From Azolla caroliniana (taxonomy: Eukaryota; Plantae; Polypodiophyta): a DNA stretch of 64,000 nt. The translations under genes were made by a program, and so were the position numbers. The notes below the pieces were generated by a model that saw nothing but the letters and a program-made list of their open reading frames with translations, was not told where the DNA came from and ran no database searches. Each line of letters opens with the position of its first letter. The first letter of the stretch is position 1. The DNA is taken from assembly GCA_043228905.1 (NCBI GenBank), contig JBHGNT010000010.1, positions 14,570,001 through 14,634,000 of the forward strand, written 5' to 3'. Positions 6,063 through 64,000 of this stretch are shown one piece after another.

Positions 6063-6084
6063 ACAAGAAAGTAGAGCGTGTGGA

Positions 6085-7709: not shown

Positions 7710-7804
7710 TGTAAAAAGTAGCGTGCGGAAGCAAGTATGAAGACCGAAAAGAAGGAAGGAAACTCAGGTTTAATGGAGAGCTTGAGCTTACACGGTATAC
7801 GCGG

Positions 7805-7838
<34 letters not shown>

Positions 7839-8109
7839 ATAAGAAATATATTCAACAATAATACTCAGTCTGTACATAAGACGTGCTCAGTGAACACTTT
7901 TATACAAGTCCTAGAAGGATTGACCGAAGTACTGACAGTACTTCAATGCTCATCAAGAGCTCCTACACTAACTCCCAAATATATTCTTCACGGAATATCT
8001 TTCCTAACGACCTCCCGGTTTACGCACTCGGCCTAACCGATCGGTCCCAACCGATCTGGTCCTCGGCTTCTTCAGCCGATCCGGCCGATGTTGAGCTTGT
8101 CTCTCAACA
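7710..8109 (-). repeat. 3' LTR of copia (400 bp)
   Basis: Direct repeat of 11517-11898, adjacent to the PPT. Confidence 0.93.
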
Positions 8110-8260
8110 CTCCCCCTCAAGCTCAACTCGAGGCTCTTCGGGATCCTCGGGCTCACAGCTCCGGTTCCTCCTGGCTTCATGCCTCGCTCGCGCTCCTCAA
8201 CCTGTTCGACTCCGTGCGCTTTGACCCTTCCGGTCGGCTTGTCTGCTCAGACGGCCCTTA

Positions 8261-40202: not shown

Positions 40203-43200
40203 ATGGACAATTTGTTGGGAGGCATGTTCAAGCTCACTGACTCCAACTATTCAGTGTGGAAGTCGAAGATGAGGGACATGCTCGTGGTTAAAGATCTTTG
40301 GTTGCCGGCTCAGTTCGGGGACAAGAGACCAGACAAAATCGATGCCACGATATGGGAGGTGATGCACATGAACACAACGCCGTACATACGGTGCTTCATC
40401 GACATGAGTCTATACAACAACTTCAATGAAGAGAGCAAGGCTCATGAGCTCTTGGAGAAGATCAACATTATGTTTTAGAACAAAAATGTTGTTAATCAGG
40501 TTTCGGTATTTTGGAAGCCAGTAAGACTCCGGTACCAAGATGGCTCCAGCATGGCGGAGCACATGAATGCCTTCCAGGGGCTGATCCACCTGGCAACATC
40601 ATTGGAAGTACCTCTCGCCAATGAGGTACTAGCACTACTCCTGCTCGACTCCCTCCCAGATAGCTCGGAGACGTTGGTTGTCACTTTGGGCAACGCCGGG
40701 CCAGAAGGGAAACGGTTATCCCTAGGAAGGGTGAAGTCAACCTTGCTAGATGAGGAGGCGCATCGGAAAGACAAGGATACGAACTCCGACTCCAAAGCGC
40801 TCCTTACCGAATCAGAATGCGGAAGGCAAAGGAACCGTAGTCCCCAAAACCGGGAAAAGTCGGGGACACGGTCAAATTCAAGGGGGAGGACTACTTGCTT
40901 CTATTGCGGCAAGCAGGGACACTTCCAAAAGAACTATCGGCACTTCCGAAAAGACAAGGAAACCGACGGTACCGATTCGAAGCGGACATTGGACCAAAAC
41001 GGTAAAGACCGGAGGGGGCCGGACCATAAGGGAACGACGGCAATCGCGGCAAGTGAAGAAGAGTTGATGCTCATCACCGAGGAGAGTTAGCTAAACCTTG
41101 CCAGCGACGAGAAGACCTGGGTAGTCGATTATGGAGCGTCGTTCCACCTTACCCCAGATCGGAAATGCTTCTCATCCTACTCAGCCGGTGATCAAGGTTG
41201 TGTCCGGATGGGGAATGAAGGTACATGTCGAATTGTCGACATAGGAGACGTGTGGTTGACAACACCAACCGGATGCAAGCTTCTGTTGAAGGATGTCCGA
41301 AAAGTTCTAGACGTTCGACTAAACCTGATATTAGCCGGTCGGCTAGATGATGAAGGCAACACGGGTAGCATCCAGAACTGTGTTATGAAGTTTAGCAAAG
41401 GGAGCCTGATTGTGGCTCGGGCCCGGAAGGTCAACACACTATACCTGATGAATGCCCGGTTATGCCCGAAAGAAGTGAACGTGGCTTCCGACACTGCCGG
41501 TGAGCTGTGGCACAAGAGACTGTGTCACATGAGCGTGAAGGGGATGAAGAGGCTTGCCGATGACAACCTCATTTCAGTGAAGAACGTGCATCTTGAGAGG
41601 TGCACCGACTGCCTAGCCGGTAAGCAAAACCAGACCTCCTTCCGACCAAGGCCACCGATGAGATGTAATGCACCACTGGAGTTTGTGCATACGGATGTGT
41701 GTCAAGTGGGCACAAAGTCACATGCCGGATCACAGTACTTCATGACGTTCATAGATGACCACAGCCGGAAGCTGTGGGCCACACCATTGAAGATGAAGGA
41801 TCAGGTGCTATGCATCTTCAAAGAGCTCCATGCGAGAGTGGAAAGAGAAACCGGCCGGAAGCTGAAGGCGGTTCGAGCAGATAACGGAGGAGAATACCAG
41901 GGGCAGTTCGAGGAGTACTGCCGCTCGAAGGGAATTCGGCTCAAATTTACCGTGCTGAAGACGCCGGAACTAAACGGGCTAGCCGAGAGGATGAACCGGA
42001 CCATAATGGAGAGGGTTCGGAGTATGCTAGCACATGCTAAGCTACCCAAGACGTTTTGGGCTGAGGCGCTATCGACAACTACGTATGTGATAAACAGATC
42101 ACCCTCAGTGCCCTTGGATGGAGACACGCCGCAGAAGGTCTGAACCGGTAAGGAAGTGTCCTACCGGCATTTGAAGGTGTTCGGGTGTCTCACGTACGTG
42201 CATGTTGCTAAGGACCGGAGAGGAAAATTGGATCCAAAGACCCGGCCATGCATATTCCTCGGATACTGCGATGATGAGTTCGGCTACCGAGTGTGGGATC
42301 CGGTTGACAAGAAGGCTTTCCAAAGACGAGATATTATCTTCATGGAGGACAAGACCCTTGCCGACTAGGATTCGGAGAAGAAGATAATGGACTCCAATGA
42401 GATTCGGACCCACCTGGCTAAGAGCCAGCTGACACTCGAGGAACCAGCCGGTTACGGTGAGGATACCGAACCGGCAAAAGAAGAAGTAGAGGAAGCTAAA
42501 ATCAGAACCGGCCAAGACCCCGAATCGGATTCGGATGAAGAACAAATAGTGGAGCCGGTTGCCGAAGGCCAAAGACGAAGATATCCTCTCAGAGAGAGAA
42601 GGCCCCTCCGGAGATTTCCGGATATAGAGCACATGTTACTAACCGATGAAGGGGAGCTAGAAAGCTTCAAGGAAGCTAAAAGTGACGCCCACAGCCGCAA
42701 ATGGTTAAGTGCCATGCAGGATTAGATGGATTCCCTACATGAGAACCATAAGTACAAATTGGTGGAGTTGCCGAAAGGAAAGCGGGCACTCTGAAACAAG
42801 TGGGTGTACAAGTTGAAACTGGGAGATGTCGGCAACCCCCCGAGATACAAAGCCAATATCGTGGTGAAGGGGTTCCAACAGAAGAAGGGTGTGGACTTCG
42901 ACGAGATATGTGCTCTGGTAGTAAAGATGACTTCCATCCGGACGGTGCTGAGTATAGTGGCAAGCATGGACCTCGAGGTAGAGCAGCTAGACGTAAAGAC
43001 GACATTCCTTCACGGTGACATCGAAGAGGAGATCTACATGCAGCAATCAGAAGGATTCGTGGAGAAAGGGAAGGAGCACCTGGTTTGCCGGTTGAAGAAG
43101 ATCCAGTACGGATTGAAGCAAGCCCGCCGACAATGGTACGAGAAGTTTGACTCCTTCATGACCGACCAAGGGTATCACAAAACGCAAACCGATCACTGCG

Positions 43201-44224
43201 TGTTTGTGAAGGAGTTCGAAGGAGGCGACTTCCTGATACTCCTTTTGTACATGGACGACATGTTGATCGTCGAACGGGACCAAGCCAAAATACGGATGCT
43301 GAAGAAGGCTCTCAACCAAACTTTCTCAATGAAAGACTTGGGCCCGGCAAGACAGATACTGGGGATGCACATCATTTGGGACCGGTCAAAGAAGCAATTG
43401 TGGTTGTCACAGGAGAAATACGTGACAAAGGTGCTTCAACGGTTCAACATGTTAGAAGTGAAACCGGTCAGATCGACACTCCCAGCAAACTGCAGATTAT
43501 CCGGTAAGCAAAGCCCAAAGACGAAAGCAGAGAAGGCAGATATGATGAAGGTTCCATATGCTTCTGCCGTCGGGAGCTTAATGTACGCAATGGTGTGTGC
43601 TCGATCGGATATTGGATACGCAGTCAGAGTGGTGAGCCGGTTTATGAGCAATCCCGACAAGGAGCACTGGAACGCGGTCAAATGGATACTCCGGTACTTG
43701 AAGGGCACTTTGAATATGTGTCTCTGATTCGGCTCCGGTAAACCTCAACTTGACAGTTTTACCGATTCGGACATGTCGACTGATGTGGATACCAGCCGGT
43801 CTACATCCGGCTATGTAATGACATATGCAGGAGGAGCTATTTCGTGGCAGTCGAGGCTGCAGAAGACGGTTGCGTTGTCAACCACGGAGGCAGAGTACAT
43901 GGCGGTTGTGGAAACCGGCAAGGAAATATTATGGATGAAGGACTTCATCGGTGAGCTCGATATCCGGCAAGATGAATACCGGCTCTATTGCGACAGTCAA
44001 AGTGTCATCCACCTTGCTAAGAACACAGCGTACCATTCCAGGACGAAGCACATCCAGCGTAGGTATCACTGGATCTTGGAGCGAGTAGAAGATCGAGAGT
44101 CTCGCTGTCAAAGATCCACACGGCTAAGAATGGGTCTGATATGCTGACCAAAGTATTAATACCCGACAAGTTGGATGCATGTCGGAAGCGGATCGGACTA
44201 GTAAGACATCCCATGCCGGAGTGA
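40203..44224 (+). pseudogene. pol: copia gag-pol polyprotein with multiple premature stops
   Basis: ORFs 40203..40478, 40551..41090, 41208..42143 (integrase), 42804..43727 (RT, LYMDDM), 43773..44147 (RNase H). Confidence 0.9.
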
Positions 44225-44266
44225 AGGGGGAGTTTGTTAGGAAACAGGTCCCTCCGGATGGGAAGT

Positions 44267-44411
44267 GAGAACCGGAGGACGAGTACCCGACAACGGAAGA
44301 CTCGGTGAGAACTGAAGGACGAGTATCCGGCTTCGGAAGACCCGGTGAGAACTGGAGGACGAGTACCCGGCAACGGAAGACCCGGTGAGAACCGGCTGCT
44401 GGAGGCCCGGT
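44267..44411 (+). repeat. 40-bp tandem repeat (3 units + 25-bp variant) in 3' LTR U3
   Basis: GAGAACYGRAGGACGAGTA...GGAAGACYCGGT units starting at 44267, 44307, 44347 and 44387. Confidence 0.85.
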
Positions 44412-45203
44412 GAGAACCTCTCATCAGATGGAAGGGACATATATGTAAATATGTTCCAGAGAGCCCACTGAGGCTATATTTGTAAATAGCCCGAAAGTCA
44501 TATTAGTATAAATATAACCTAGGGCAAACTTAATAGTTGTGTGTATGATGTAGAGTTGGTTGTGTTATTATCATTGTGGCGATAATTCAGTGCGTAACTG
44601 CGTACAGAGAAGAGAGAGAGAGAGAGAGGAAGAGGTCATTGCCTCTGTTGTAACCTCCTGGTGGCGAAGCGAGGGAGCAAGAGGTCGTTGCCTCTATGCC
44701 CCATTGTTGTAATCTTGATATAGTGATATTTTGCAGTTTGAGGGCTGCCATGGTTTTTCCCAGATTTGGGTTTTCCACGTTAACATCGAGTCCACTCTCT
44801 TCTTTACTGTTTCGTGCATAAATACATCTCACCACATCCCTGTTTTCTGTGCTTCATCCGACATCTCGGTTGTGGCCGAGCATAGCTTAGGAAACCGCAT
44901 TCCTTTCAACAAGACGCGAAACAGTACAACACTCTGCTCGCCGATTGTTCCCACGTCGGGAAGTCTTTGTGTGTCGAATCGGGTGCTGTGTTATTTGCTC
45001 CATCGACATAGCTCTAGTAACCGTGTCCGAGCAGGTACTGGTGCATCTTGTAGGACCAAGATGCGTAGTTGGTTTTGTTGAGCTTCTACGTCGGAAGCGA
45101 GCTAGCCATTCCTCTGTCCATCGGTTTTCTTGTTCTTCTTCGTTGGTTTTTCCTTCAAGCAAAGTCGGCTGCAGAGGTTCTCAACCCTCACGCTCTGATA
45201 CCA

Positions 45204-45659: not shown

Positions 45660-48188
45660 ATTCGGTATGAGGAGTCTTGTTAGGTGTCCCGGCCCCAGAT
45701 TGGGATTTTGACAGTGTTTGGTTGTCCTCCCCTATGGTTGTCGTCGACTCTTTTCTGACTTGTCTCTCGGTGACTTTGCCTTTATCGATCCTGCTTGATT
45801 CGGTTGTGTCTTTGATGACTTTGTCTTTGAGTCGAACGATAGGACTTGTTGCCGATTCGGTGTTGGCAGGGAAGTTGGTAGCTTGTTAGTCGAGTCTCCG
45901 ATTCAGCCTGGTGGGTCGGTCCTTCTACGACGGTGCTATCATCTTCGAAGGATACCTTCTTACGAAAGTGTTTTCTATTAGTTCCACTAAGAGAATATAG
46001 AGTCTTCATTGAAGACTATGTGCTCCGGATCAATTTCCAGTTCTCAGGGTCCCATAGCCGGTAACCGAAGTCCCCATCGGTTCCATAACCGAGAAATATG
46101 CACTTTGTTGCATGGGGTGCCAACTTCGTCCTTTTGTCCCTGGGGATGAACGCGTAGGCTTCGCATCTGAATATATTGAGCTTATTGTAGGTCGGCTGTT
46201 TGCCTAACCATAGTGCCTGATTGCTCTTGACGGCGCCAGATTTATGAGGTACACTACCGTCTGCAATCCCTCGGCCTAGAATTCCAGCTTCAGTCCGGCT
46301 TGCTGGAGCATTGTCGTCACCCTCTCCTACATCGTCTTGTTGATCCGTTCTACCACTCCATTTTGCATGGGTGTATAGGGAACAGTCTTTTGGTGTCGGA
46401 TCCCTTTTCCGTACAGGTACTGTTTGCAGGCACTGGAGGTGTAGTCACTTCTGTTGTCGGATCAGAGTGTCTTCACTCTGTATCTCGACCGGTTCTCCAC
46501 TTTAGATATCCATCGAGTGAAGACCTCGAGCGCTTCATCTTTGGACTTGATGGAATATGCCCAAACTTTCCGTGTACAATCATCTACGAATGTGATGAAG
46601 TACTGGGAGCCTCCTAGTGATCGCTCTGGCATGGACCCACATATGTTTATGTGCACGAGCTCTAGGGGTTGTCGTACCGTCTCGTCATGGAGATGGTGTG
46701 GACTTTGGTTCTGTTTCCCATATCGACAATGCTCACAAAAGTTCATCTTTGCTGGGAGTTTTGGAATGTAGCCGACCTACATCAACCGATCAAGTTCGGC
46801 TTGAGACATGTGGCCAAGTCGGCCATGCGATAAGTTCGGGTCGGTTTTCTCGGCTATGTTCACAGCCCCTTAAGGGTTGATCGCCATCAATGGCTATAGA
46901 TTATGTTCAGAATCAAGCTCAACTTGGTCTAGTGTGTGAATTCACCTTGAGAGTGAATAGAAACTCCAACGGTCAAGAGTCACCATTATGTCACCACTTT
47001 GTATTCTAGCATTTAGTATGAGTCATAGAATCATATTCTATGACACATAACTTATGAGCTTTCACATTCCCCATGCTCCATGATTCTTGTAGTTAATGAA
47101 GAGAGAGGGTGACTATATAAAGCACCATCTTCCCACCTTGTATAATGTTCAGTCTTTCTCCTTTGTTAAGATATTTTACCTTGTGTATTCTCTGTGTCTT
47201 ACTCCTTGTCTCTCTCACTCTTTCTCTCTCTCTCATACACACAGTTCATATCTATTCCGCTGCATAGAATCCATCTCGTGATTCTTTACATGGTATCAGA
47301 GCACATCACGGCCTTGCCCGAAGATGGACAAAGGCGATGTGAGGAGCGCCCTCCCTACCGAGAAGTTGGATCAAAACAATTTCGCATCTTGGGAGTACAA
47401 GATGCACCAATACCTTGTTGGACAAGGCTATTGGAGCTACATCATAGGAGCGCACGAAGACCGACCCGTCAAAATGGCTCCCGGATACGCGACATGGGAG
47501 CAAGCCGCAAGCCGCGTGATGTATTGCTTGGCGACATGTGTTCACGATCACATGCTCAGCTACATTCGCGAAGCCAAGATGCCGAAGGAGGCATGGACAA
47601 ATCTACAAAGAGTTTCGCGGCGAACACAATCGCAAGAAGGCTTCAACTCCGCCAAGAGTTGAACAACATTCAACAAAGGGACATGTCCATCATGACATAC
47701 AACTTGAAGATCAAGGAGCTTTGTGACTTGCTCAGCTCGATAAGCGTAAATATCGATGATGATGAGACGGTGCAAATATGCCTCGGTGGTCTCGCACCAC
47801 GGTTCGGCACGATGCGAACCGCCGTTCTAGCAACGGAGAAATCTCCCTCCTTCTTCGAGCTCCAATCAATGCTATTGGTCGAAGAAAAACACGTGTGTAC
47901 AAGGAGCAATGAGTCGGAAGGCCACATGCTCTACACGCACTCGAACGGAGGAAGAGGACGCGGACAAGCAAGAGGCCGATTCGGCCAAGGACAAGGCGGA
48001 CGAGGTCCGACCTATGACAACAACTCCCAATTTCGGCCGCAAAACGGAAGCCAACAAGGAACCTCTGCAAGAAGGGGGAGCTTCCACTCCGGCCCTAGCC
48101 GTCAAAACGCAACCGAATGTGGATATTGCAGAAAGCTCAACCACCATGAAGAAGAGTGCCGAAAGAAGATGCGCGAATCAGCTTCCAC

Positions 48189-48321
48189 TGTCAGGAACTC
48201 TATTAAGGCAGAGAAGGAATTAGTACTAAAAGAAGGATTAGTACTATTGTTGGGGAATAGTACTAAGACAGAGAAGGATTAGTACTATGAGAGGTGTCGA
48301 ACTTTGAGAGAAGGAATGAGT

Positions 48322-48357
<36 letters not shown>

Positions 48358-48647
48358 TGATGCGAAAGATATATGTATTATATGACGGAAGATATACAAC
48401 AGTAGTTAGAAGGCTTAAGACTGGCGTTGAACCGATTTGGTTCGAACTAATGCCTTGCGCCTCCTTTTATAGTGTCTTCAGGAATACTCCTGAAGTTTCT
48501 AGAATGTTCCAGAGAAATCTGGAATATACATCAATTTCCTAATAAAACCTAAATGAAAATAATATCCTTCAAATTACAACTCATAACCTAATGGTAAAGT
48601 CTCGACCCGTGTAACAAAAGGTTATGGGTTCGAGTCTAGTTATGACA
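48189..48647 (-). repeat. 3' LTR (459 bp)
   Basis: Direct repeat of 53483-53943. Confidence 0.96.
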
Positions 48648-51600
48648 CTATCCCCCCTTTAAAACGACGAGTTTCACGAGTCGTTTTGGATTGAGGACCC
48701 GGTTTCTCGGGATATCGTCGATGGAAGTCTTCTAGAAGAGCACGAGCATTGGTCACATTCTCGATCGGTTCCCAAGTACGCTCGCTGGGACTATATCCTA
48801 GCCAATCGACTAGATAGTAGAGCTTGTTGCGAACAATCTTGGAATCGAGGATGGCAGCGACCTCATACTCAGGTCCATCTTCGAGCTCGATAGGAGGTGG
48901 AGGTTGTATAGTACGTCCTGGGATAGTGCTCTCGTGATAGGGTTCGAGGAGAGAACTATGAAACACCGGGTGTATCCGAAGTTGCGGAGGTAGCTCGAGA
49001 CGAAAAGCGACATCATTAATCTTCCCGATAATACGGAAAGGACCTAATCGTCGATAATCCAACTTCTCACATGGGCGAGTAGTCTTGATGTGTCGTCGTA
49101 GCAGCCACACCCGATCTCCAATGTTAAAACTGGATGGAAGTCGATGACGATCTGCGTAGTCCTTGTGTGATTGTTGAGCTTGCTGGAGTTGAGTAGATAA
49201 ATCCGCTTGTATCTTGCGTAACCGCTCCAAACGATCCTCCGCGCAAGGATTTGTGGACACTTCTGGGGTTTCAAGGACACACCACCGGGGATGATATCCC
49301 GTATAAGCGTAGAATGGCGTGACTTTAGTCGATGCGTGGATAGCGTTATTATAGGCAAATTCGGCGAACTGAAGAATATCTGCCCAGTCATTCTGATGAT
49401 AATTGAGAAAGCACCGCAGATACTGCTCCAGTGTTTGATTTGTTCGTTCGGCTTGACCGTCGGTTTGTGGGTGGTAGCCGGAGGAGAGGTTACAAGTGAC
49501 CTTCAGCATTTTAAAAAGGTGCTTCCAGAATTTTGACACAAACTGGGGTCCACGATCGCTGATGATATTATCAGGGAGTCCATGATGCCGACATACTTCC
49601 CGCATGACAATTTCGGCGGTGTCTTCACTAGATATTTCTTTAGTACATGGTAAGAAATGAGCCATCTTCGTATATCGATCCACCACTGTGAGAATCGCAC
49701 TGAATCCCTTAGAGACTGGAAGATCTGTAATGAAGTCAAGAGCAATGGATTGCCATGGCTTGCTTGGAATTGGTAATGGTTCTAATAAACCATATGGATG
49801 ATGTCTTGGCATTTTCGCTCTGCAGCATGTATCGCAAGTCCGAACAAAATCTTCGACAAATTGTCGCATACGGGGCCACCAGAATGATCGTTGTACTAAA
49901 TCTAATGTTTTAGTACTACCAAAATGTCCTGCTGTATATGTGTCATGGCAGTTTTGTACTACTCGAAGGCGGCAAGAACCATTAGGAACATACAAAAGTT
50001 CTTTAAAGAAGAGTAATCCATCACAGTATTTGAATTGCCGATAATCCGTACCTGGTGATTGTGATTGTGAACATGACGCTCGAGAGGGGTCAATTTGTGC
50101 TAGTATAGCTTGGGCGAAAGCGTCAGTCTTCAAGTCCTCACGTATAGTATTGGTAATGTCGGAATCCACGGGCATGTCAAAGATCTGTGCTGCTTGCAGT
50201 CGTGCTGGACCCAAGATTACTTGCTTCTGGTTATCGAAAGCTGGCTCACCGGGACGTGGTGTTAGATACGAACGCCGTGATAATGCATCTGCCTTCCCTT
50301 GGTGCTTCCCCGGACGATATGTAATTTTGAAGTCGAAGCGTGTGAGGAAGTGGGCCCACCGAGCTTGACGTCGATTCAGTACACGAGCATCTTGAAAGTA
50401 GGCAAGGTTCTTGTGGTCACTGAATACAATGACCTGATGAGGAGATCCCTCCAGGAAATGCCTCCATTGCATAAAAGAATCAACTATTGCTAATAGCTCT
50501 TTATCATGAATTTCGTAGTTGATTTCGGCGGCGTCAAACTTACGGGAGTGGAAAGCCACAGGATGTAGCTTCTCGTCGTTACCCTGTTGTGACAGAATGC
50601 TCCCCAATGCGAAATCCGATGCATCAGCTTCGATAATGAATGGTTTTTCCGGATCCACATGACCTAAAATTGGAGCTGATGTAAACGCCTTCTTAAGACT
50701 CTCGAAAGCCATGTCCGTCTCTTTAGACCAAATGAATGATTGTCCCTTCCTGGTGAGCTGTGTGAGAGGCAGCACAATTTTTGAGTAATTTTGTATGAAC
50801 TTCCGGTAGAAATTTGCAAAGCCTAGGAAGCATTGCACATCCCGCACCGAACGCGGAGTGTGCCATTCTATCACCGTTTTGACCTTGGCTGGGTCCATAG
50901 ATATGCCTTCTGAGGAGATGACATAGCCGAGAAACTCCACTTGGTTGCACCCGAAACTACATTTCTCTAACTTTGCATACAGACCATGTTCTCGAAGTCG
51001 TTTTAGTACTAATAGTACATGAGAATCATGTTCTTCTTGGGTCTTTGAATAAACCAGTAGATCATCCAAATAGATGATCAAAAAATCATCCAAGAGATCT
51101 CGAAATATATCATTCGCCATGTGCTGGAAGACTGCCGGCGCATTAGTGAGTCCGAACGGCATGACCGTATACTCGAAGTGCCCATATCTGGTGCGAAACG
51201 CGGTCTTCCATTCATCTCCTGGTCGGATCCGTACGAGGTTATAGGCTCCTCGTAAGTCGATCTTCGTGAAGAACCTGGCACCGTTGATCCGTTCTAAAAG
51301 ACTTGAGATAAGGGGAAGAGCATACCTATTTCTTACTGTGACCTTATTCAAGCCACGGTAATCTACAACGAGTCGAAGCGAGCCATCTTTTTTCTTGACG
51401 AAGAAAATGGGTGCGCCGGCTGGAGATTTCGAATGCCGAATGAAACCGTTCTCCAAATTCTCCTCTATATAGGCTCGAAGGACTTCTAGCTCGGTTGGTG
51501 ACAAATTGTAGATCGGCCCCCATGGCGGCTCTTTTCCCGGTTGTAAGTCGATGGCGCAGTCGTACGGCCGATGATGAGGAAGTGTGTTGGCTTGTACTTT

Positions 51601-52236
51601 ATCGAACACATCAGCATACTGACGATACTTCTCGGGAAGTTGAACGGTGGACTCCTCTTTGGTGGTGCTGGAGGGTTGTACTGATATTGCAAAGAGAAAC
51701 ATTTCCTCCTTGCGCCCTTCCTCACGCAACTGACGTAGCGAAATGGTTGCAACCTTCTGGGTAGATCCTTGGGTTTGTCGCAACCGGATTTCCCTTGTCC
51801 TCCAATCTATGTCTGGGTCATGTAACTCGAACCATGGTAATCCTAAAACTATGGGATGTTCTGGAATACTAATAATATTAAATGATACTACACATGTTAA
51901 GTTATCTAGGACAATATTAACGGGTTCCGACTCTTCTATGATATTACCAGAAGCAATGGGACGACCATCAATGACTACTACTGAGGCTGGACATGGGAGC
52001 TTTCTGAGAGATATCTGATGAGCTCGGGCAAAATTCCTATCCATGAAGCAAGAATTAGCTCCAGAATCTAGAAGGGCTAAGGTATGTACTGGAGGGGTAC
52101 TTTTAGTACTAACTGCTACTTGGACTACGAACACATCACTAACTTGCTTAGAGGGAATGGAACCACTAATGGGCTGCACAGATCTAGGGCTGTCCAACCA
52201 AACGGCTCCTATTTTGGCTGGACTTAGTCGTTTAAC
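48640..52236 (-). CDS. pol: Pol: protease, RT, RNase H, integrase, chromodomain (likely expressed via -1 frameshift from gag)
   Basis: 1185-aa ORF: LLDSGA, KIDLRGAYN, YLDD, DASD, HPQTDGQAER, GPF, YEVAAILDS...YLVDWLGY...TWEP; the frame is open back to the slippery site at 52236. Confidence 0.95.
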   Translation of the reverse strand, partial: VKRLSPAKIGAVWLDSPRSVQPISGSIPSKQVSDVFVVQVAVSTKSTPPVHTLALLDSGANSCFMDRNFARAHQISLRKLPCPASVVVIDGRPIASGNIIEESEPVNIVLDNLTCVVSFNIISIPEHPIVLGLPWFELHDPDIDWRTREIRLRQTQGSTQKVATISLRQLREEGRKEEMFLFAISVQPSSTTKEESTVQLPEKYRQYADVFDKVQANTLPHHRPYDCAIDLQPGKEPPWGPIYNLSPTELEVLRAYIEENLENGFIRHSKSPAGAPIFFVKKKDGSLRLVVDYRGLNKVTVRNRYALPLISSLLERINGARFFTKIDLRGAYNLVRIRPGDEWKTAFRTRYGHFEYTVMPFGLTNAPAVFQHMANDIFRDLLDDFLIIYLDDLLVYSKTQEEHDSHVLLVLKRLREHGLYAKLEKCSFGCNQVEFLGYVISSEGISMDPAKVKTVIEWHTPRSVRDVQCFLGFANFYRKFIQNYSKIVLPLTQLTRKGQSFIWSKETDMAFESLKKAFTSAPILGHVDPEKPFIIEADASDFALGSILSQQGNDEKLHPVAFHSRKFDAAEINYEIHDKELLAIVDSFMQWRHFLEGSPHQVIVFSDHKNLAYFQDARVLNRRQARWAHFLTRFDFKITYRPGKHQGKADALSRRSYLTPRPGEPAFDNQKQVILGPARLQAAQIFDMPVDSDITNTIREDLKTDAFAQAILAQIDPSRASCSQSQSPGTDYRQFKYCDGLLFFKELLYVPNGSCRLRVVQNCHDTYTAGHFGSTKTLDLVQRSFWWPRMRQFVEDFVRTCDTCCRAKMPRHHPYGLLEPLPIPSKPWQSIALDFITDLPVSKGFSAILTVVDRYTKMAHFLPCTKEISSEDTAEIVMREVCRHHGLPDNIISDRGPQFVSKFWKHLFKMLKVTCNLSSGYHPQTDGQAERTNQTLEQYLRCFLNYHQNDWADILQFAEFAYNNAIHASTKVTPFYAYTGYHPRWCVLETPEVSTNPCAEDRLERLRKIQADLSTQLQQAQQSHKDYADRHRLPSSFNIGDRVWLLRRHIKTTRPCEKLDYRRLGPFRIIGKINDVAFRLELPPQLRIHPVFHSSLLEPYHESTIPGRTIQPPPPIELEDGPEYEVAAILDSKIVRNKLYYLVDWLGYSPSERTWEPIENVTNARALLEDFHRRYPEKPGPQSKTTRETRRFKGGIVS

Positions 52237-53393
52237 TCTTCTTCTAATTGGCTAAGGACATCAAATTTGTTTGCGAGATTCGGACTATTAGTACTATTAG
52301 GACTATTATGACTATGAGGATTATCAGAGATTCCTACTGAAATAGACTCGGGTTTAGTATAGTCAGAACTAACAATGACTTGGTTTACCTGCCTTCTTGG
52401 TCTATGGGGACAGTTTATCGCAATATGCCCTGGTCCACCGCAATAAAGGCATAATCGGTTTGTTCGGCGTCGTTGCTTTTCCTCCTCCGATAGCGGCCCA
52501 CGACGACGTGTAGTGTCAATTTCCATTGGAGTTGGAGTACTTACTGGAGGCGCATTATGTGACTCCCTTTGAAAAGGTTTCGCTACCACTGAGGCATAGG
52601 TAGGCTCGGATCTTGCCCTCGGCATCTGAAATTGTCGTTCCGAACGTCGCTCGAAGAGGCGGTTGTCACATCTGACCGCTCGACTGATTGCTTCTGTTAA
52701 TGATTTTGGCTCTTCAGGGAAAGTCAAGAGTAAATCCTTGACATCGTTGCGTAGACCATAGCGGAACTGCTCCATCAATGCTTGATCATCCCAGGGGATA
52801 TCGGCGGCGAGTAGGCGGAAATCTGCAGCATATGCGGAGGCTGGACGGTCACCTTGGCGTAATCGCCGGATTTTGTTGATTGCAGTCCTTATGCTGTCAG
52901 TATCTCCAAAACATGCTTTAAACTCACTTATGAATTCTTCAAAATTATTTAGTACTGGAGATTCCTTTTCTAGTAGCGGAGCGAACCATGCTAATGCTGA
53001 GCCATTTAACAACGTGCCTACTAAACCCACTCGTGATGCATCGGTGGGATATCGGGACGGATGCATTTGAATAACTAACCGTACCTGGTTAAGAAACCCT
53101 CTAAACTGCGATCGCGTTCCATCGAACTTCGTGGGAAGGCCAATCTTGGGTTCTTTATGAATCCCTTGTGCTCCGTGCCCTTGTTGTTGCATTGCTACGA
53201 TGGTTGCTTCGAGTTGTTGCACGCGTAACGCAAGTTCCCCATGCTGTTGTTGCGTTTGCTGCTTTTCTAAGGAAATTTGCTGAAGATCCCCCAACAAGCG
53301 TTGATTTTCTTGTTCCAAAGCATGAAACTTCTCTTTCAAGCATTGAAATTCCGAGAAAACGGATTGATACTCTTCAGCGCTAACGGTGGCCAT
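52224..53393 (-). CDS. gag: Gag (PEG10/sushi-like capsid, N-terminal coiled coil, CCHC knuckle)
   Basis: 389-aa ORF: KFDGTRSQFRGFLNQ, LRQGDRPASAYAADF, CLYCGGPGHIAINC. Confidence 0.95.
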   Translation of the reverse strand: MATVSAEEYQSVFSEFQCLKEKFHALEQENQRLLGDLQQISLEKQQTQQQHGELALRVQQLEATIVAMQQQGHGAQGIHKEPKIGLPTKFDGTRSQFRGFLNQVRLVIQMHPSRYPTDASRVGLVGTLLNGSALAWFAPLLEKESPVLNNFEEFISEFKACFGDTDSIRTAINKIRRLRQGDRPASAYAADFRLLAADIPWDDQALMEQFRYGLRNDVKDLLLTFPEEPKSLTEAISRAVRCDNRLFERRSERQFQMPRARSEPTYASVVAKPFQRESHNAPPVSTPTPMEIDTTRRRGPLSEEEKQRRRTNRLCLYCGGPGHIAINCPHRPRRQVNQVIVSSDYTKPESISVGISDNPHSHNSPNSTNSPNLANKFDVLSQLEEELND

Positions 53394-53468
53394 GGGATGA
53401 AGGAAAAGGGAAATAAGAGACTAGTAGGAAAGGAGAGAGGCAGAAGGAAGAGGGAGACTAGTAGGCGG

Positions 53469-53480
53469 AAATCGGTTCAA
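53469..53480 (-). promoter_or_regulatory. Non-tRNA primer-binding site (putative self-priming)
   Basis: Minus-strand TTGAACCGATTT 2 nt after the 5' LTR; reverse complement of LTR sequence 53734-53723. Confidence 0.8.
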
Positions 53481-53482
53481 AC

Positions 53483-53615
53483 TGTCAGGAACTCTATTAA
53501 GGCAGAGAAGGAATTAGTACTAAAAGAAGGATTAGTACTATTGTTGGGGAATAGTACTAAGACAGAGAAGGATTAGTACTATGAGAGGTGTCGAACTTTG
53601 AGAGAAGGAATGAGT

Positions 53616-53653
<38 letters not shown>

Positions 53654-53943
53654 TGATGCGAAAGATATATGTATTATATGACGGAAGATATACAACAGTA
53701 GTTAGAAGGCTTAAGACTGGCGTTGAACCGATTTGGTTCGAACTAATGCCTTGCGCCTCCTTTTATAGTGTCTTCAGGAATACTCCTGAAGTTTCTAGAA
53801 TGTTCCAGAGAAATCTGGAATATACATCAATTTCCTAATAAAACCTAAATGAAAATAATATCCTTCAAATTACAACTCATAACCTAATGGTAAAGTCTCG
53901 ACCCGTGTAACAAAAGGTTATGGGTTCGAGTCTAGTTATGACA
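53483..53943 (-). repeat. 5' LTR (461 bp) with TATAAAA at 53767-53761
   Basis: Direct repeat of 48189-48647. Confidence 0.96.
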
Positions 53944-55239
53944 TCCACAAGCCGACAACTCAGGAATTACGCGCACAATTCCGACCACGTAGAGTATAGC
54001 GGAATGTACGGGCACAACTCCGACTACAAAGATCGTGGCGGAATGTATGCACACAACTCCGACTGTGGCAGAATGTTCATGATGAAACATAGAGCAAACT
54101 CTATGTCGGCCTCAACCTCCACTAGTGCCCTCAATCCGGAGGACGTATGGTTTGTTGACTCCGGAGCCTCAAACCATATGACATCTCATAAAGAATGGTT
54201 TCTCGAACTTCGAGAGCTGGAGCGAACCGGTTATGTCGAAACTGGAGATAACACTACGCACCTGATTCAGCACATCGGCAATGTTCCATTTGGCGAAAGA
54301 GGTAAGCAAACATACATTAAAAATGTCTTGCATGTTCCCACCATCATGAAGAACTTGGTCTCAGTCGGCCAAATGGTTGAGCAAGGGATGCAAGTACGAT
54401 TCGACCAAGAAGGGTGCTTCATCGAAAAAGAGTGCCGAATCATCGCACGCGGAAGAAGAGAGGGCCGGATGTTCATTCTCGATTCACACGAGATGAAATC
54501 CGCCATGTTCGCAAAAAGCACGAATGCCGACCTTGTATAATGTTTAGTCTTTCTCCTTTGTTAAGTAACTTTACCTTGCGTATTCTTTGTGTCTTACTCC
54601 TTGTCTCTCTCTCTCTCTCTCTCTCTCTCATACACACAATTCATATCTATTCCGCTGCACATAATCCATCTCGTGATTCTTTACAGATTATTATACTTGT
54701 GCCCACTACCTATTTTGAGGTTTCCTCGGCTGATCACCCATGTCGACTCGTGTAGAGTCGTTTAATACCTATCTTCGGCTAATATGCCGATGGAGACTAG
54801 ACTCCTCTTTAGATCGGGTACGTGCCGAACTCTGTGCAGGGTTATTGTGTTGCCATTTGGCAGTCTGATGGAAACCTCCCCAGTTCCGGCTATCTTGCAC
54901 TCCTGCCCGTTTCCCAATCAGACTGTGTCGTTGGCGTCAGCTGAATAGTTCGAGAACCATTCAATGTTGGGGGTCACGTGAAATGTGGCGCCAGAGTCTA
55001 GTAGCCACGTGTGTGCAACTTGTGCACTGTAGAGGATTTCTCCGATCATTGATTCCTCTAAGGAGAGGATTTCTCCGGATCGAGTGTCGGCAACGTTGAT
55101 CCGGTTGCCGACTGGAGAGTAGTCTGAGTCAAAACGTCCCCGATTCTGCTCGGATCACCGACCACTCTCTTTTTCTTTTTAATGACCAACAGTCGAAAAC
55201 ATTGTGGCCAACTTTCTTGTAGTGTGTGCAGTACTCGCT

Positions 55240-55356
55240 TGATCGTCCCATTGGTTCCGGAAATATCATAGAAGAGTCAGAACCCGTTAATATTGTCCTA
55301 GATAACTTAGCATGTGTAGTATCATTTAACATTATTAGTATCCCAGAACATCCCAT
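55240..55356 (+). other. ~115-bp inverted fragment of the chromovirus protease region
   Basis: Reverse complement of ~51852-51968 with several mismatches. Confidence 0.8.
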
Positions 55357-55870: not shown

Positions 55871-55990
55871 AAAGAGAGCTCATCTTTCGAGGGTCAACGT
55901 CTGAATAAAGGGAAATTATCGACTCGCCCCATGTCCATTTTCTGTATTTGACCTCCGAAATCATGACTTCGCTTTGTTTGAGCAGAGAAT

Positions 55991-58189
55991 ATGCATCGAG
56001 AACTCCAGAGGAAGATATTCCTACATTCTCTACAAGAATGTGCACAGAAAGAAGACATATCCACGGGAAGGAAGATGCATTGTCTCTTTCTTCTTCAGAA
56101 CATTTGGTCGTCTGGAGTTTTAGAAGACTATCTTCTGCGTCTCTATGCATTCCATGGAACCTTACTAGAAGCAAATCTAATATTTTGTGAAAGCTTCAAA
56201 CCTTCCGTATATACATGGTATGCTATCATCTCTGCTCATATTGCACATAACGAAGGTCATGTAAGCTTAATGCTATATCAAAACATGATAAAGAATGATG
56301 TTATTCCTAATAATTACATACTGTCTTGCATCATGAAATGTTGCTCCTTAAATGTTGTCACTTGTGGTATGATTATCCATCATCATGCCATTGAATATGG
56401 ACTTTTTTCAGATGTAGTTGTTGCCACTTCTTTGGTTAGCCAGTACGCTAGATGTGGTATGTTGAGAGATGCATACAATGTGTTTGAACGAATGAAGAAT
56501 CGAAATGTTGTAACTTATGGAGCGATGATATTGGGGTATGCTCGGTATGGCTGTATAATTCAAGCATTTGAGCTTTTTCATTTGATGCAAAATAATGAGA
56601 AAATAATGCCGAATCGAGTTATATTCTTTTGTATGATTTCAGCTTGTGGTGTTTTATCAGGTCTAGAAGAAGGTCGATTCATTCATGATTTAGTTATCCG
56701 AAATGGTATCGAATCAGATCTTGCTGTTGGAAATACTTTGGTTGATATGTATGCAAAATGTGGAAGCATCAAAGAAGCACAAAATGTATTTGATATTTTA
56801 CCTGATCGGAATATTGTGTCTTGGGGTGCAATGATTACTGGATATGCTCATTTAGATTATGGCTCAGTAGCACTTCAACTATTTCGAGAAATGCAAAAAA
56901 ACAATATCAAGCCAAATAGGGTTATTTATCTCTCTGTCTTGAAGGCATGTGTCAATGTTGGTGTAATAGATCAAGGTGAAGCAATACATAACCAAATATT
57001 GGCAAGTGGTTTAGACTTGGAGTTACCTATTAGAAGTTCCCTCATTGACATGTATGTGAAATTTGGAAACCTGACAAAAGCTCGTAGGATCTTTGACAAT
57101 TCGCCTTTTAAAAACGTCGTCTTATTTTCTGTAATGCTTTCTGGATATTTGCAGCATGAAGAAGATCTGTTAGCATTTCAATTGTTTGAAAAAATGGAAG
57201 AATTTGATATTGTACCAGATATTTATGTCTTTACATGTGTCTTGAAAGCATGTGGCCTTGCAAGATCTCTAGTTGAAGCAAAGTGGATTCATTGTTCTAT
57301 TATTAGAGCTAATCTTGAATGTGATATAGCAGTTGGAGGCTCGCTTATCGATGTCTATTCTAAATGTGGTTGTTTGGAAGAAGCACGTAAAGTGTTTGAT
57401 AAGTTACCTCAAAAAAATGAAGTGGCTTGGGGTGCAATGCTCTCTGGATACAACCAACATGGCCAAGAGTGTCTAGCATTGGATCTTTTCCAAAAGATGC
57501 TAAATGATGGTGAAAAGAATCCTGATAAAGTTCGTTTATTATGTGTTCTGAAAGCTTGTGGAAGAATGGGGGCATTATTTCATGGGAAAACAATTCATGC
57601 TTTGATTAAGACTAACAAAGTTAATGTAGATGTGATCCTTGGGAATGCTATGATTGACATGTATGCTAAATGTGGCAATCTTGAAGAGGCATATGTAGTG
57701 TTTAATGAATTGAAAGAGCGAGATATAGTATCATGGGGTGCAATGATTGCTGGATATGCTCAACAAGGTAGGCACGAGATGGTGAAGCAACTTCTCGGAG
57801 CAATGCAATGTGAAGGAATATCTCCAAATGGTGTAATATATAGCAGTATACTTTCGGCCTGTAGTCATTCGGGTGAAGTAAAGGAAGGTTATGGTTACTT
57901 TATTTCTATGAAATTAGATCATGGAATTTTACCAAGTTATGAACACACTAATTGTATGATCGATCTACTTAGCAGGGTGGGAATGTTGAATGAAGCAAAA
58001 AAGCTCCTTCAAGATAGTATGTCTTCATTATCTGATACTATGGCATGGACATCCTTATTAACTGCATGTAGAACATATGGTAACTTGGAGCTTGGGAAAC
58101 AATGCTATGAAAAAGTTGTCCAGTTGAGTCCTGACATTTCCTCTGGTTATGTAACTATGTCAAATATATTTGCCGATGCACATTTATGA
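55991..58189 (+). CDS. PLS-class pentatricopeptide repeat protein with E domain (organellar RNA-editing factor type), no DYW
   Basis: Intronless 732-aa ORF with repeated P-L-S motifs (LVDMYAKCGS.EA..VF, VSWGAMI.GY, VLKAC) and E1/E2 motif WTSLLTACRTYGNLELG...YVTMSNIFA. Confidence 0.93.
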   Translation: MHRELQRKIFLHSLQECAQKEDISTGRKMHCLFLLQNIWSSGVLEDYLLRLYAFHGTLLEANLIFCESFKPSVYTWYAIISAHIAHNEGHVSLMLYQNMIKNDVIPNNYILSCIMKCCSLNVVTCGMIIHHHAIEYGLFSDVVVATSLVSQYARCGMLRDAYNVFERMKNRNVVTYGAMILGYARYGCIIQAFELFHLMQNNEKIMPNRVIFFCMISACGVLSGLEEGRFIHDLVIRNGIESDLAVGNTLVDMYAKCGSIKEAQNVFDILPDRNIVSWGAMITGYAHLDYGSVALQLFREMQKNNIKPNRVIYLSVLKACVNVGVIDQGEAIHNQILASGLDLELPIRSSLIDMYVKFGNLTKARRIFDNSPFKNVVLFSVMLSGYLQHEEDLLAFQLFEKMEEFDIVPDIYVFTCVLKACGLARSLVEAKWIHCSIIRANLECDIAVGGSLIDVYSKCGCLEEARKVFDKLPQKNEVAWGAMLSGYNQHGQECLALDLFQKMLNDGEKNPDKVRLLCVLKACGRMGALFHGKTIHALIKTNKVNVDVILGNAMIDMYAKCGNLEEAYVVFNELKERDIVSWGAMIAGYAQQGRHEMVKQLLGAMQCEGISPNGVIYSSILSACSHSGEVKEGYGYFISMKLDHGILPSYEHTNCMIDLLSRVGMLNEAKKLLQDSMSSLSDTMAWTSLLTACRTYGNLELGKQCYEKVVQLSPDISSGYVTMSNIFADAHL

Positions 58190-61689: not shown

Positions 61690-62968
61690 TAAGTTCTTAT
61701 GTACGATACATGAATAATCTAGGAAGAGAACATTGGGCAACAGTGAAGTGGATACTTAGGTACTTAAAAGCCACCTCAGGGGTATGCCTAAGGTATGGTG
61801 TTAGAAAACCCATCTTGGAAGGATTTACCGACTCGAACATGTCGGGGGATGTAGACTCAAGCCTATCCACGTTAGGGTACGTGATGATCTATGCAGGGGG
61901 AGCAATATCGTGGCAGTCACGACTGCAGAAGTCTGTGGCCTTGTCGACCACAGAGGAAGAGTATATGGCAGCGATAGAGTTCGGCAAGGAGCTAATTTGG
62001 ATGAACAGTTTCCTTAGTGAACTCGGGATAAAGCAAGAAGAATTCTTGCTCCACTGTGATAATCAAAGTGTCATACATCTAGCAAAGAATGCCACGAACC
62101 ACTCCCGGACCAAGCATATACAGAGAAGGTATCACTGGTTGAGGGAGAAGGTTGAAGAAGGAGAGTTTACTTTCGTGAAGATCCATACTGATGACAATGG
62201 ATCTGACATGCTAACAAAGAACCTGCCGATGGACAAACTTAGAGTCTGTCAACAGAGGACAGGACTAACGGACTCCTCGCCACTGGAGTGAAGGGGGTGT
62301 TTGTTAGGAATATGTCCCTCCAATGAGAAGAGTTGATTGCTCGAAGAGAGCCGACAGTCAAAGATAGGGATTAGCCGACTGGTCTAGCCAAGAGCCGAGA
62401 GTCGATGATAGGGAGAGTCGACAAGAGGAGATAGAGGTCAAATACATGACCAGCTAGTCGGGCCAACCCGATAGTTGATGAATAGGCCGACTAGTCGGAC
62501 CGACCTGGACAATAGACAAATTAGTCGGCTGATTAGTAAGATTATTATTATTATTAGAGAATAATAATGGCCACAATAGTAAATAACCCATACTATGTAT
62601 TAATATATATACATACCTAGGGCAAACTGTATATAGAACAAAATAGTTGTAGCCTCTGTTACATAGCGTGATAGTGTGACGTTGTAGAGTGAGAGGGCAA
62701 GAGAGAGTGAGAAAGAGAGCGACACCATAGCTAGTGAGTTTGGATGTCAAGAGCCTTGTGCGTCTTATACACTCTGTTTTTCCAGAGTGTTGTATTGTAT
62801 GATCTCACCTTGTACTTCTCTCTATATAGTGGAATCTCTGTTCCCGTGGTTTTTCCCTGTTTAGGGTTTCCATGTATATACATTGTGTATTGTGCATTTG
62901 TTGTTTCCACGTGTGTTGTGTATTTCCGAGTTAGTCTTTGTCATAGATTTGAGGTTCGGCCCTCAACA
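61690..62968 (+). mobile_element. Ty1/copia 3' remnant: RNase H, PPT, 3' LTR (62302-~62968)
   Basis: ORF 61710..62291 (VKWILRYLK, ISWQSRLQ, HSRTKHIQRRYHW); PPT GAAGGGGG; LTR TGTTAGGAA...CAACA. Confidence 0.85.
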
Positions 62969-63517
62969 CATCTGACTTACCAATATAATGTAACAGATTC
63001 CTCAAATTTACTTTACATGTATAAAATCACATAGGTATACATCGAACCACATTGTATGCATAAAAGAATCCTAAACAAAGAAATAAACCAACAATGTAAT
63101 CGATATAGTAATAGAGGCCTTTGGTCTCTACACACACGCAACACCCAAATTAGTATACGCAATATGTAATTGAGGTATTGACCTCATATGAATACGAAAC
63201 ACATCGACACATCAAACATGTATAAGATGAATTTTGAATAACGTAACATTGTATGTAATACGATGGAGGCATGAACCTCATACGTATACATAATGCATAT
63301 ATGATTTATACACATAAAATACATCAATGACAACTTGTTCTAAATATTTATACTTAAACATGCATAATCATGGGAGAAGGAAGAATAGAATAAGGAGAAA
63401 CATTATTGGTTAATGGAAAGGTGATACCAAAGTTCTTTTATTGATGGCTTTCTCTATATACCCCGCTACGGACAAATCAATCAATCATTAGAAAGAAAGA
63501 AAATAAATCAACGAAAG

Positions 63518-64000
63518 TGTCGGGAACGCAACGTTCCTTATGCGCAACGCTCGGCCACAACCGAGCTTAGAATGATACACAGAAATACGGGAAATAAAAA
63601 CGCGACACAAAGAAGGAGAGAATACACAGGAAGTTTACGTGGAAAACCCCAAACTAGGGGGAAAAACCACGGCAGCCCACAGGCTGCAAACTGTCACTAT
63701 GTAGGAATATACAGCAGTGAGTTCACTGAGGCAACGACCTCGTGCTCACAGATCTTCGCCACAAGCGGCGGTTACAACAGAGGCAACGACCTCGTCTCTC
63801 TCTCTCTCTTTCTCTGTACAGTTACGCACTCTCTCTTCTTCTTGCACCAACAAGGAAGAAGGACAACAACAGTTTCTAAAAGTTTGCCCTAAGTCATATT
63901 TATACTAATATGACTTTTCGGCTATTTACAAATGTAGCCTCGATAGGCTCTCAGAAACATATTTACGAATATGTCTCCTCATCCGGTTCATACCGGGCCT
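63518..64000 (-). repeat. Copia LTR (3' or solo), truncated by the window end
   Basis: Similar in reverse orientation to LTRs 39603-40171/44235-44908 and in the same orientation to 2598-3201; no adjacent PBS. Confidence 0.8.

What the first reader, a model, noticed from the sequence alone, without database searches (positions are those of the whole stretch)
53469..53767. tRNA-independent self-priming signature (Tf1-type) in an intact plant retrotransposon
Seen: no TGG-tRNA PBS follows the 5' LTR. Instead the 12-mer TTGAACCGATTT (53480-53469, minus) is the perfect reverse complement of AAATCGGTTCAA (53734-53723), which starts 33 nt after the TATAAAA start, i.e. at the expected transcript 5' end. 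Established: S. pombe Tf1 primes reverse transcription with the first 11 nt of its own mRNA, annealed to the PBS and released by RNase H. Inference: this element uses the same mechanism. Self-priming has been proposed for Tcn1-like plant elements, but I know of no experimental demonstration in plants.
Basis: partly seen in the sequence, partly recalled or inferred. Interest (0 to 1): 0.85.

Follow-up and report, generated by a model that had tools for sequence, protein, structure and literature searches.

The report
Self-priming fern LTR retrotransposon
An intact, recently inserted jumping gene, likely from a fern, has a primer site that pairs perfectly with the predicted start of its own RNA instead of a tRNA, so it likely primes its own copying as yeast Tf1 does, a route already predicted in print for this plant group and still untested in plants.

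Summary
Confirmed. The 12-mer at 53480-53469 starts 2 nt after the 5' LTR and is the exact reverse complement of 53734-53723, 33 nt after TATAAAA; 3 of 20000 LTR shuffles match this. The element is an intact Ty3/gypsy chromovirus: LTRs without substitutions, 5-bp TSD, open gag and pol. A neighbouring PPR gene points to a fern host. Four related elements keep the helix with different letters: of 44 cells, 28 same, 15 changed on both sides, 1 broken. In 15 of 16 relatives the best helix also begins at +2. Tf1-type self-priming is likely (~0.8), but transcription start, cleavage and priming are untested. It is not new: Neumann 2019 predicts self-priming for 83% of 1500 plant Tcn1 elements by the same criterion, and this scan noted it in a moss element on other DNA. 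Added here: covariation, promoter geometry, only two of Tf1's three duplexes predicted, and two side features (a hairpin across U3/R; an antisense A/B-box-like block in U3). New member of a known kind; interest 0.3.

The parts
53483..53943 (-). 5' LTR, 461 nt, TG...CA
   Evidence: 459 identities, 0 mismatches and one 2-nt gap in the CT run against the 3' LTR
48189..48647 (-). 3' LTR, 459 nt
53944..53948 (-). target site duplication GTGGA (upstream copy)
48184..48188 (-). target site duplication GTGGA (downstream copy)
53761..53767 (-). TATA-like box TATAAAA in U3
   Evidence: a TATA-like word lies 31-35 nt before the primer in 9 of 16 relatives
53723..53734 (-). predicted self-primer = predicted first 12 nt of the transcript (C|A at -1/+1)
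   Evidence: the start site is predicted, not mapped
53716..53722 (-). conserved motif after the primer (C[AG]CCAGT); its GT and the next bases are predicted to pair with the LTR's 3' end (second duplex)
   Evidence: invariant columns; folds
53481..53482 (-). 2-nt spacer (GT) between LTR end and PBS
   Evidence: a 2-nt offset in 15 of 16 relatives
53469..53480 (-). primer-binding site, complementary to the element's own R start
52224..53393 (-). gag ORF, 389 aa (Retrotrans_gag, Ty3_capsid, weak zf-CCHC)
48640..52251 (-). pol ORF, 1203 aa, overlapping gag in the -1 frame: PR-RT-RNase H-IN-SH3-chromodomain
52230..52236 (-). slippery-site-like heptamer in the gag/pol overlap (candidate -1 frameshift; motif class recalled)
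   Evidence: same heptamer at the gag end of L005
48715..48867 (-). chromodomain with Y...W..Y aligned to CDY chromodomains (aromatic-cage positions; their role is recalled)
48648..48660 (-). polypurine tract just before the 3' LTR
53720..53750 (-). side feature: predicted hairpin across the U3/R border (only borderline in this copy)
   Evidence: -10.6 kcal/mol, 21 of 500 shuffles as stable
53886..53932 (+). side feature: A-box/B-box-like (tRNA-like) block at the start of U3, antisense to the element; second copy at about 48590-48636
   Evidence: no Rfam tRNA hit

Best explanation
This is an intact Tf1/sushi-type (Tcn1-like) chromovirus whose primer-binding site is the exact complement of a 12-mer in its own LTR, and it likely primes reverse transcription with that 12-mer, the predicted 5' end of its own RNA, instead of a tRNA. 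Steps: (1) Pol II would start at A53734, 33 nt after TATAAAA (inferred). (2) The first 12 nt would fold back onto the PBS about 250 nt downstream (complementarity shown; pairing probability 0.91 predicted), with a short second duplex between the conserved motif after the primer and the LTR end (predicted, weak here). (3) The element's RNase H would cut after nt 11 or 12 and free a 3'-OH (inferred from Tf1). (4) RT would copy the GT spacer, U5 and the rest of R into a strong-stop cDNA of about 240 nt, jump to the 3' R, and prime the plus strand from the PPT (inferred).
For: Perfect 12-bp helix at +2, 3 of 20000 shuffles. Related elements L004, L005, L007, L008 (RT-RH 86, 81, 66, 68% identical): 28 cells same, 15 changed on both sides, 0 wobble, 1 broken of 44. 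Each primer pairs 10-11 of 11 with its own PBS and 4-8 with the others. In these four the primer is also located by the aligned motif, not by pairing. In 15 of 16 relatives with a definable LTR end the best helix starts at +2; 10 of 16 had 0 of 300 shuffles reaching it; pyrimidine|purine at -1/+1 in 14 of 15. The primer region (LTR 203-235) is the best-conserved block between this LTR and those of L004 and L005. In four DNA runs no substitution is listed in 53469-53480 at 3% or more, and 10-15 contigs per run stop matching exactly at 53469, the end of the helix. RT groups with fungal and vertebrate elements, apart from angiosperm and Closterium elements (100/100). Tf1 mechanism as described in PMC7175516 and PMC10085805 (passages); Tcn1 83% predicted self-priming.
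Against: No RNA data, so no start site, cleavage or cDNA evidence. The third Tf1 duplex (sequence after the PBS with the LTR) is no better than shuffles in this element (64 of 200), L005 (108) or L007 (138), though it is in L004 (3) and L030 (1). A primer variant at position 5 makes up 17-36% of depth in four runs with no matching PBS change listed; it would leave a U-G wobble, and changes near contig ends are not listed. L008's 5' copy does not fold into the helix (P=0.06) and L052's neither (P=0.01). The TATA spacing fits in only 9 of 16 relatives. For L004, L005 and L007 (tandem copies, one LTR each) the LTR end was picked among motif candidates by best pairing, and in the distant relatives the primer was found by best match, so those counts lean towards pairing.
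Confidence: 0.78

Rival explanations
1. The primer is the element's own R-start sequence but reaches the PBS by another route than Tf1's: from the second RNA of the packaged dimer, or as a short RNA cut by a host nuclease, without the three-duplex structure.
For: The third duplex is not predicted in this element, L005 or L007; the second is only 3 bp in the full fold here. Covariation cannot tell pairing in cis from pairing in trans.
Against: The cis fold is predicted at P 0.91-0.94 in the window element, L004, L005 and L007. The motif after the primer is invariant, and its partner at the LTR end changes with it in L007, L008 and L028. RT-RNase H is intact.
Confidence: 0.12
2. The helix is real and selected but structural (it closes the 5' UTR for packaging, dimerisation or translation), and priming uses something else.
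For: Long-range 5' UTR helices are common in retroelements (recalled); no direct priming data here.
Against: The helix sits exactly at the PBS position, +2 from the LTR end, in 15 of 16 relatives. No TGG site follows the LTR. Family likeness ends exactly where the helix ends.
Confidence: 0.06
3. A host tRNA fragment primes at this site, and the match to R is incidental or secondary. The primer's last seven bases resemble a tRNA T-loop motif (recalled).
For: The T-loop-like word is present in this element and in L005. Half-tRNA priming exists in some plant Copia lineages. The host tRNA set could not be searched (no genome held).
Against: The word is absent from L004, L007 and L008, whose PBS changes follow their own R. 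tRNAs would not track each family. Neumann 2019 found half-tRNA priming only in Ty1/copia.
Confidence: 0.03
4. Chance complementarity.
For: 33 of 20921 mock positions in the window reach 12 bp against this LTR.
Against: 3 of 20000 shuffles; conserved with both-sided changes in relatives.
Confidence: 0.01

Closest known systems
Plant Tcn1 clade of chromoviruses (Novikova 2010, PMC2864245; Neumann 2019, PMC6317226)
   Same: Non-seed plant host; 5-bp TSD; size 5755 bp (clade range 5466-9444); overlapping gag and pol; chromodomain with cage residues; PBS complementary to its own LTR (83% of 1500 elements predicted self-priming).
   Different: Host is likely a fern, whereas both papers list only mosses and club-mosses/Selaginella; PMC13477047 (2026) already states that ferns contain Tcn1. 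No named Tcn1 reference was in my trees. Novikova found no self-priming evidence for SM-Tcn1. In the passages I read these papers give no covariation or promoter spacing.
Tf1/Tf2 (S. pombe), Tj1, Tosmo1-3, Tcry1 and the Tf1/sushi group (PMC10085805, PMC4600332, PMC7175516)
   Same: PBS complementary to the RNA 5' end just after an LTR ending in CA; chromodomain integrase; central duplex plus a duplex between PBS-upstream and post-primer sequence.
   Different: 12 bp rather than 11; two overlapping ORFs rather than one ORF (Tf1) or a stop-separated pair (Tj1, Tosmo); third 'pretzel' duplex not predicted; mechanism shown by experiment for Tf1 only as cited in these papers, not here.
TAR lineage of plant Ty1/copia (Houba, Osr-1)
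   Same: Predicted self-priming in plants (89% of 203).
   Different: Copia superfamily, unrelated polyprotein order; not this element's lineage.
Helenus and Cassandra TRIMs with Pol III promoter sequences in their LTRs (PMC10886601)
   Same: tRNA-like A-box and B-box words inside an LTR (side feature only).
   Different: Those are short non-autonomous elements; here the block sits in an autonomous element with a TATA promoter, is antisense, is degenerate (no Rfam or default ARAGORN call) and was matched in only 3 of 7 LTRs tested.

Membership tests
Ty3/gypsy chromovirus | LTRs TG...CA, TSD, PPT, domain order PR-RT-RH-IN, chromodomain at the integrase C-terminus | tested here: met
Tf1/sushi group (self-priming) | PBS directly after the 5' LTR complementary to an LTR sequence, no tRNA 3'-end site | tested here: met
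   12 bp at +2; no TGG
Tf1/sushi group (self-priming) | [quoted passage not shown] | not testable with these tools
   No RNA holder listed, and contigs cannot show starts. TATA at -33 and C|A at -1/+1 fit.
Tf1/sushi group (self-priming) | Three-duplex 'pretzel' structure | tested here: inconclusive
   Central duplex P=0.91. Second duplex predicted but short (3 bp, P~0.45), with matching changes in L007, L008, L028. Third duplex no better than shuffles here (64 of 200).
Tf1/sushi group (self-priming) | Primer released by the element's RNase H | not testable with these tools
   RNase H domain present with its motifs; cleavage needs an experiment
Tf1/sushi group (self-priming) | RT phylogeny with fungal and vertebrate chromoviruses | tested here: inconclusive
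   Split from angiosperm and Closterium elements is 100/100, but the backbone is open, and a tree holding the window group with the plant rows is not rejected (p-AU 0.38). No named Tf1 or sushi-ichi row was included.
Plant Tcn1 clade | Monophyly with named Tcn1 references (PpatensLTR2, SM-Tcn1, C. neoformans Tcn1) | not testable with these tools
   No named reference among the listed hits; REXdb sequence file too large to read
Plant Tcn1 clade | Chromodomain with aromatic cage, 5-bp TSD, overlapping gag/pol, non-seed host, predicted self-priming | tested here: met
tRNA-primed plant chromoviruses (Tekay, Reina, CRM, Galadriel) | PBS starting with TGG, complementary to a tRNA 3' end | tested here: not met
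TRIMp3 (Helenus-type LTR with tRNA-derived promoter) | Short non-autonomous element with a recognisable tRNA-derived LTR segment | tested here: not met
   Element is autonomous; no Rfam tRNA hit; ARAGORN finds nothing in the window and calls the block only at relaxed thresholds in L005 (80%) and L004 (70%), where false calls are many

The most novel reading that the evidence does not exclude
This lineage runs a modified self-priming design: a two-duplex leader instead of Tf1's three; a hairpin across the U3/R border that masks the second copy of the primer at the RNA's 3' end and in read-through transcripts, so that only correctly started RNA can prime; and an antisense tRNA-like Pol III promoter at the start of U3 in an autonomous element, which could make outward or antisense RNA or act as a chromatin barrier.
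Probability: 0.2. Interest if true: 0.55.

Novelty: new member of a known kind. Interest (0 to 1): 0.3.

Why it matters
tRNA-independent priming is shown by experiment for yeast Tf1 and predicted for two large plant lineages (Tcn1, TAR). My six searches (open-licence PMC and bioRxiv only) listed no plant experiment. This element adds sequence-level support beyond the published rule: both-sided changes across families, fixed spacing to TATA and to the LTR end, and a conservation boundary at the end of the helix. It gives an exact prediction (start at 53734, primer of 11-12 nt, strong-stop cDNA of about 240 nt) that 5'-end mapping could test. It would confirm an expected mechanism rather than overturn one. 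For annotation, tRNA-based PBS finders will miss such elements.

Tried and rejected
No genome is held for the window, so no copy census and no host tRNA search. Sequencing runs: no RNA holder listed, which is no evidence either way; both read-laying runs used DNA contigs. Gag searches in genome contigs and viral contigs found no relative. The metagenome scan covered 3 of 64 parts and returned 79 loci, mostly distant. Of 82 loci, 16 entered the PBS test. Left out: L027, L033, L034, L038, L051, L057 (same family as L021, same 8-bp result); L009 (LTR end not definable); the rest had no usable 5' LTR end or were not analysed. MAFFT misaligned the PBS ends of five leaders, so pairs were counted by anchoring on the LTR end in a script, not with the alignment tool. 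The first careful tree did not finish; a quick tree of 54 rows and a careful tree of 17 rows were used. No named moss, lycophyte or fern relative appeared among the listed Pol or Gag hits or cluster members. 'Anti-primer' hairpin as a universal feature: rejected. It is strong in L005, L006, L007 and L049 (0 of 500 shuffles each), borderline in the window element, L004 and L008 (21-29 of 500), absent in the other 10 of 17; by longest helix alone the window element was unremarkable (73 of 500). tRNA gene in U3: not supported by Rfam or default ARAGORN. The A/B-box patterns were shaped after seeing the sequences, so their counts are partly circular. Look-ups of earlier findings by sequence and near this place gave nothing relevant.

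Full report
Observation. On the minus strand, 53480-53469 (TTGAACCGATTT) is the exact reverse complement of 53734-53723 (AAATCGGTTCAA), and TATAAAA begins 33 nt before 53734. The LTR ends are fixed by the second LTR and by the TSD GTGGA on both sides: 5' LTR 53943-53483, 3' LTR 48647-48189. The 12-mer therefore begins 2 nt after the LTR, and no TGG lies in the first 13 nt. Of 20000 dinucleotide shuffles of the LTR, 3 give 12 bp or more at offsets 0-5; of 20921 mock positions in the window, 33 do, likely through the CT microsatellite. The predicted leader folds with the helix at mean pairing probability 0.91.

The element. It is 5755 bp. The LTRs differ by no substitution and one 2-nt gap, so the insertion is very young. 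Gag (389 aa) and Pol (1203 aa) are open and overlap in the -1 frame. Pfam gives Retrotrans_gag, Ty3_capsid, protease (weak), RT, RNase H, integrase, Tf2-1-like SH3 and Chromo. The chromodomain aligns to CDY/HP1-type domains with Y...W..Y kept. A purine tract precedes the 3' LTR. It is inserted in a Copia-type element. A PPR gene 2 kb away has its best named matches in ferns (52-54%, against at most 39% for the best-scoring lycophyte, 'Gb_', liverwort and angiosperm rows among 120 hits), so the host is a land plant and likely a fern. No moss protein was among those 120 hits.

Relatives. 82 loci were fetched; 16 had a definable LTR end and entered the test (those left out are listed under Tried and rejected). 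In 15 of 16 the longest Watson-Crick helix between the LTR and the sequence after it starts at +2, as here. Ten had 0 of 300 shuffles reaching it, four had 2-4, L049 had 36 (6 bp, 11 with one G-U) and L008 had 253. L008 is an aged copy (LTRs about 92% identical) whose 3' LTR copy pairs 10 of 11. A TATA-like word lies 31-35 nt before the primer in 9 of 16, and -1/+1 is pyrimidine|purine in 14 of 15. For the four closest (L004, L005, L007, L008; RT-RH 86, 81, 66, 68%) the primer is also marked by an invariant motif. Over 11 pairs each, 28 cells are unchanged, 15 change on both sides and 1 is broken; every primer fits its own PBS (10-11 of 11) better than any other (4-8). Limits: these four are kin, their hosts are unnamed, and for three of them the LTR end was chosen among motif candidates by best pairing. 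The wider count (62 both-sided changes in 112 cells) is partly built in, because the primer was located by matching. The primer region is the best-conserved LTR block against L004 and L005.

Within the family. In four DNA runs (at most two studies), no substitution is listed in the PBS at 3% or more, and 10-15 contigs per run stop matching exactly at 53469. A variant at primer position 5 holds 17-36% of depth. It would give a U-G pair; whether it is compensated in full-length copies cannot be told, since solo LTRs are mixed in and changes near contig ends are not listed.

Against Tf1's structure. PMC10085805 (passages and section 28 part 1 of 2) describes three duplexes. The central one is met. 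The second, between the motif after the primer and the LTR end, is predicted as 3 bp here, in L004 and in L005, and with changed partners in L007, L008 and L028. The third is no better than shuffles here (64 of 200), in L005, L007 or L066; it is better in L004 and L030 and borderline in L029 (21 of 200).

Phylogeny. A careful RT-RH tree of 17 rows separates angiosperm and Closterium elements from a set holding the window element with fungal, fish and frog elements (100/100). Window+L004+L005 is starred, the backbone is open, and holding the window group with the plant rows is not rejected (p-AU 0.38). The quick 54-row tree shows the same split. No named Tcn1 reference was available, so the name Tcn1 rests on shared features, not on a tree.

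What is known. PMC6317226 (passages; supplementary file 5 whole; files 1 and 3, with the per-element PBS table and the sequences, too large to read) predicts self-priming for 83% of 1500 Tcn1 and 89% of 203 TAR elements, by a rule this element meets. PMC2864245 (passages) found Tcn1 in mosses and Selaginella and no self-priming evidence for SM-Tcn1. PMC13477047 (passage) states that ferns contain Tcn1. PMC7175516, PMC4600332 and PMC5341516 (passages) describe the Tf1/Tf2/Tj1 mechanism; the original Levin papers and Butler 2001 I saw only as citations. PMC8282616 and PMC7466625 (passages) added nothing on priming. Searches listed no plant experiment, within an open-licence library that lacks most subscription papers. 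The scan's own notes hold the same reading for a moss element on other DNA and for several other lineages, and one note on this genome also suggests a fern; these are unchecked leads, seen after my own tests.

Side features. A hairpin spans the predicted U3/R border in L005, L006, L007 and L049 (0 of 500 shuffles), is borderline here, in L004 and in L008 (21-29 of 500), and is absent in 10 of 17. An antisense A-box/B-box-like block sits at the start of U3 here, in L004 and in L005. Rfam and default ARAGORN do not call it a tRNA, and the patterns were partly shaped on these sequences. PMC10886601 (abstract, passages, sections 3.4-3.5) describes tRNA-like LTR segments in non-autonomous elements. 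Both features are leads only.

Verdict. Start site, cleavage and priming are inferred. It is a new member of a kind already predicted in plants. Interest 0.3.

Noticed in passing
window 53886-53932 (+) and about 48590-48636 (+); L004 4239-4281 (-); L005 4064-4106 (-): A-box-like and B-box-like words with the same 43-nt span lie antisense at the start of U3 in this element, L004 and L005; L006 keeps the B-box-like word only. The only window matches are the two LTRs; 2-12 of 2000 shuffles per LTR give one; absent from L007, L008, L028. The patterns are partly circular and there is no Rfam tRNA hit.
   Followed up: partly
window 53720-53750 (-); L005, L006, L007, L049: Hairpin across the predicted U3/R border: 11-12 bp and primer-masking in L005, L006 and L007, borderline here, absent in most distant relatives.
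   Followed up: partly
window 47132-54685: The element is nested in a Copia-type element: Copia gag ORF at 47170-48282, a Pol beta-barrel domain resuming at 53911-54540, and 159-nt direct repeats at 47132 and 54527 that sit close enough to suggest an internally deleted host element.
   Followed up: partly
window 55982-58189 (+): PPR gene with repeats of about 101 residues and a weak E-motif hit, as in RNA-editing factors (class recalled). Its best named matches are ferns at 52-54%, against 39% lycophyte, 38% for eukprot 'Gb_' proteins, 35% liverwort and 32% angiosperm.
   Followed up: yes
window 55240-55356 (+): A 117-nt, 93% identical fragment of this element's protease region in the opposite orientation, 1.3 kb outside the 5' LTR.
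   Followed up: no
L004, L005, L007: These relatives occur as head-to-tail tandem elements sharing one LTR between pol and the next gag; they could be real tandems or assembly collapses.
   Followed up: no
window 53730: A variant at primer position 5 (a CpG site) holds 17-36% of contig depth in four DNA runs, with no listed partner change in the PBS.
   Followed up: partly
window 39603-44702 and 61824-63980: Further LTR-like repeats and Copia domains, and gypsy RT domains at 27010-28638 and 32546-33637: the window is a stack of retrotransposons.
   Followed up: no
L021 family (L021, L027, L033, L034, L038, L039, L051, L057): Distant relatives with an 8-bp helix at +2 whose LTR partner lies only about 80 nt before the LTR end and has no TATA at the usual distance.
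   Followed up: no
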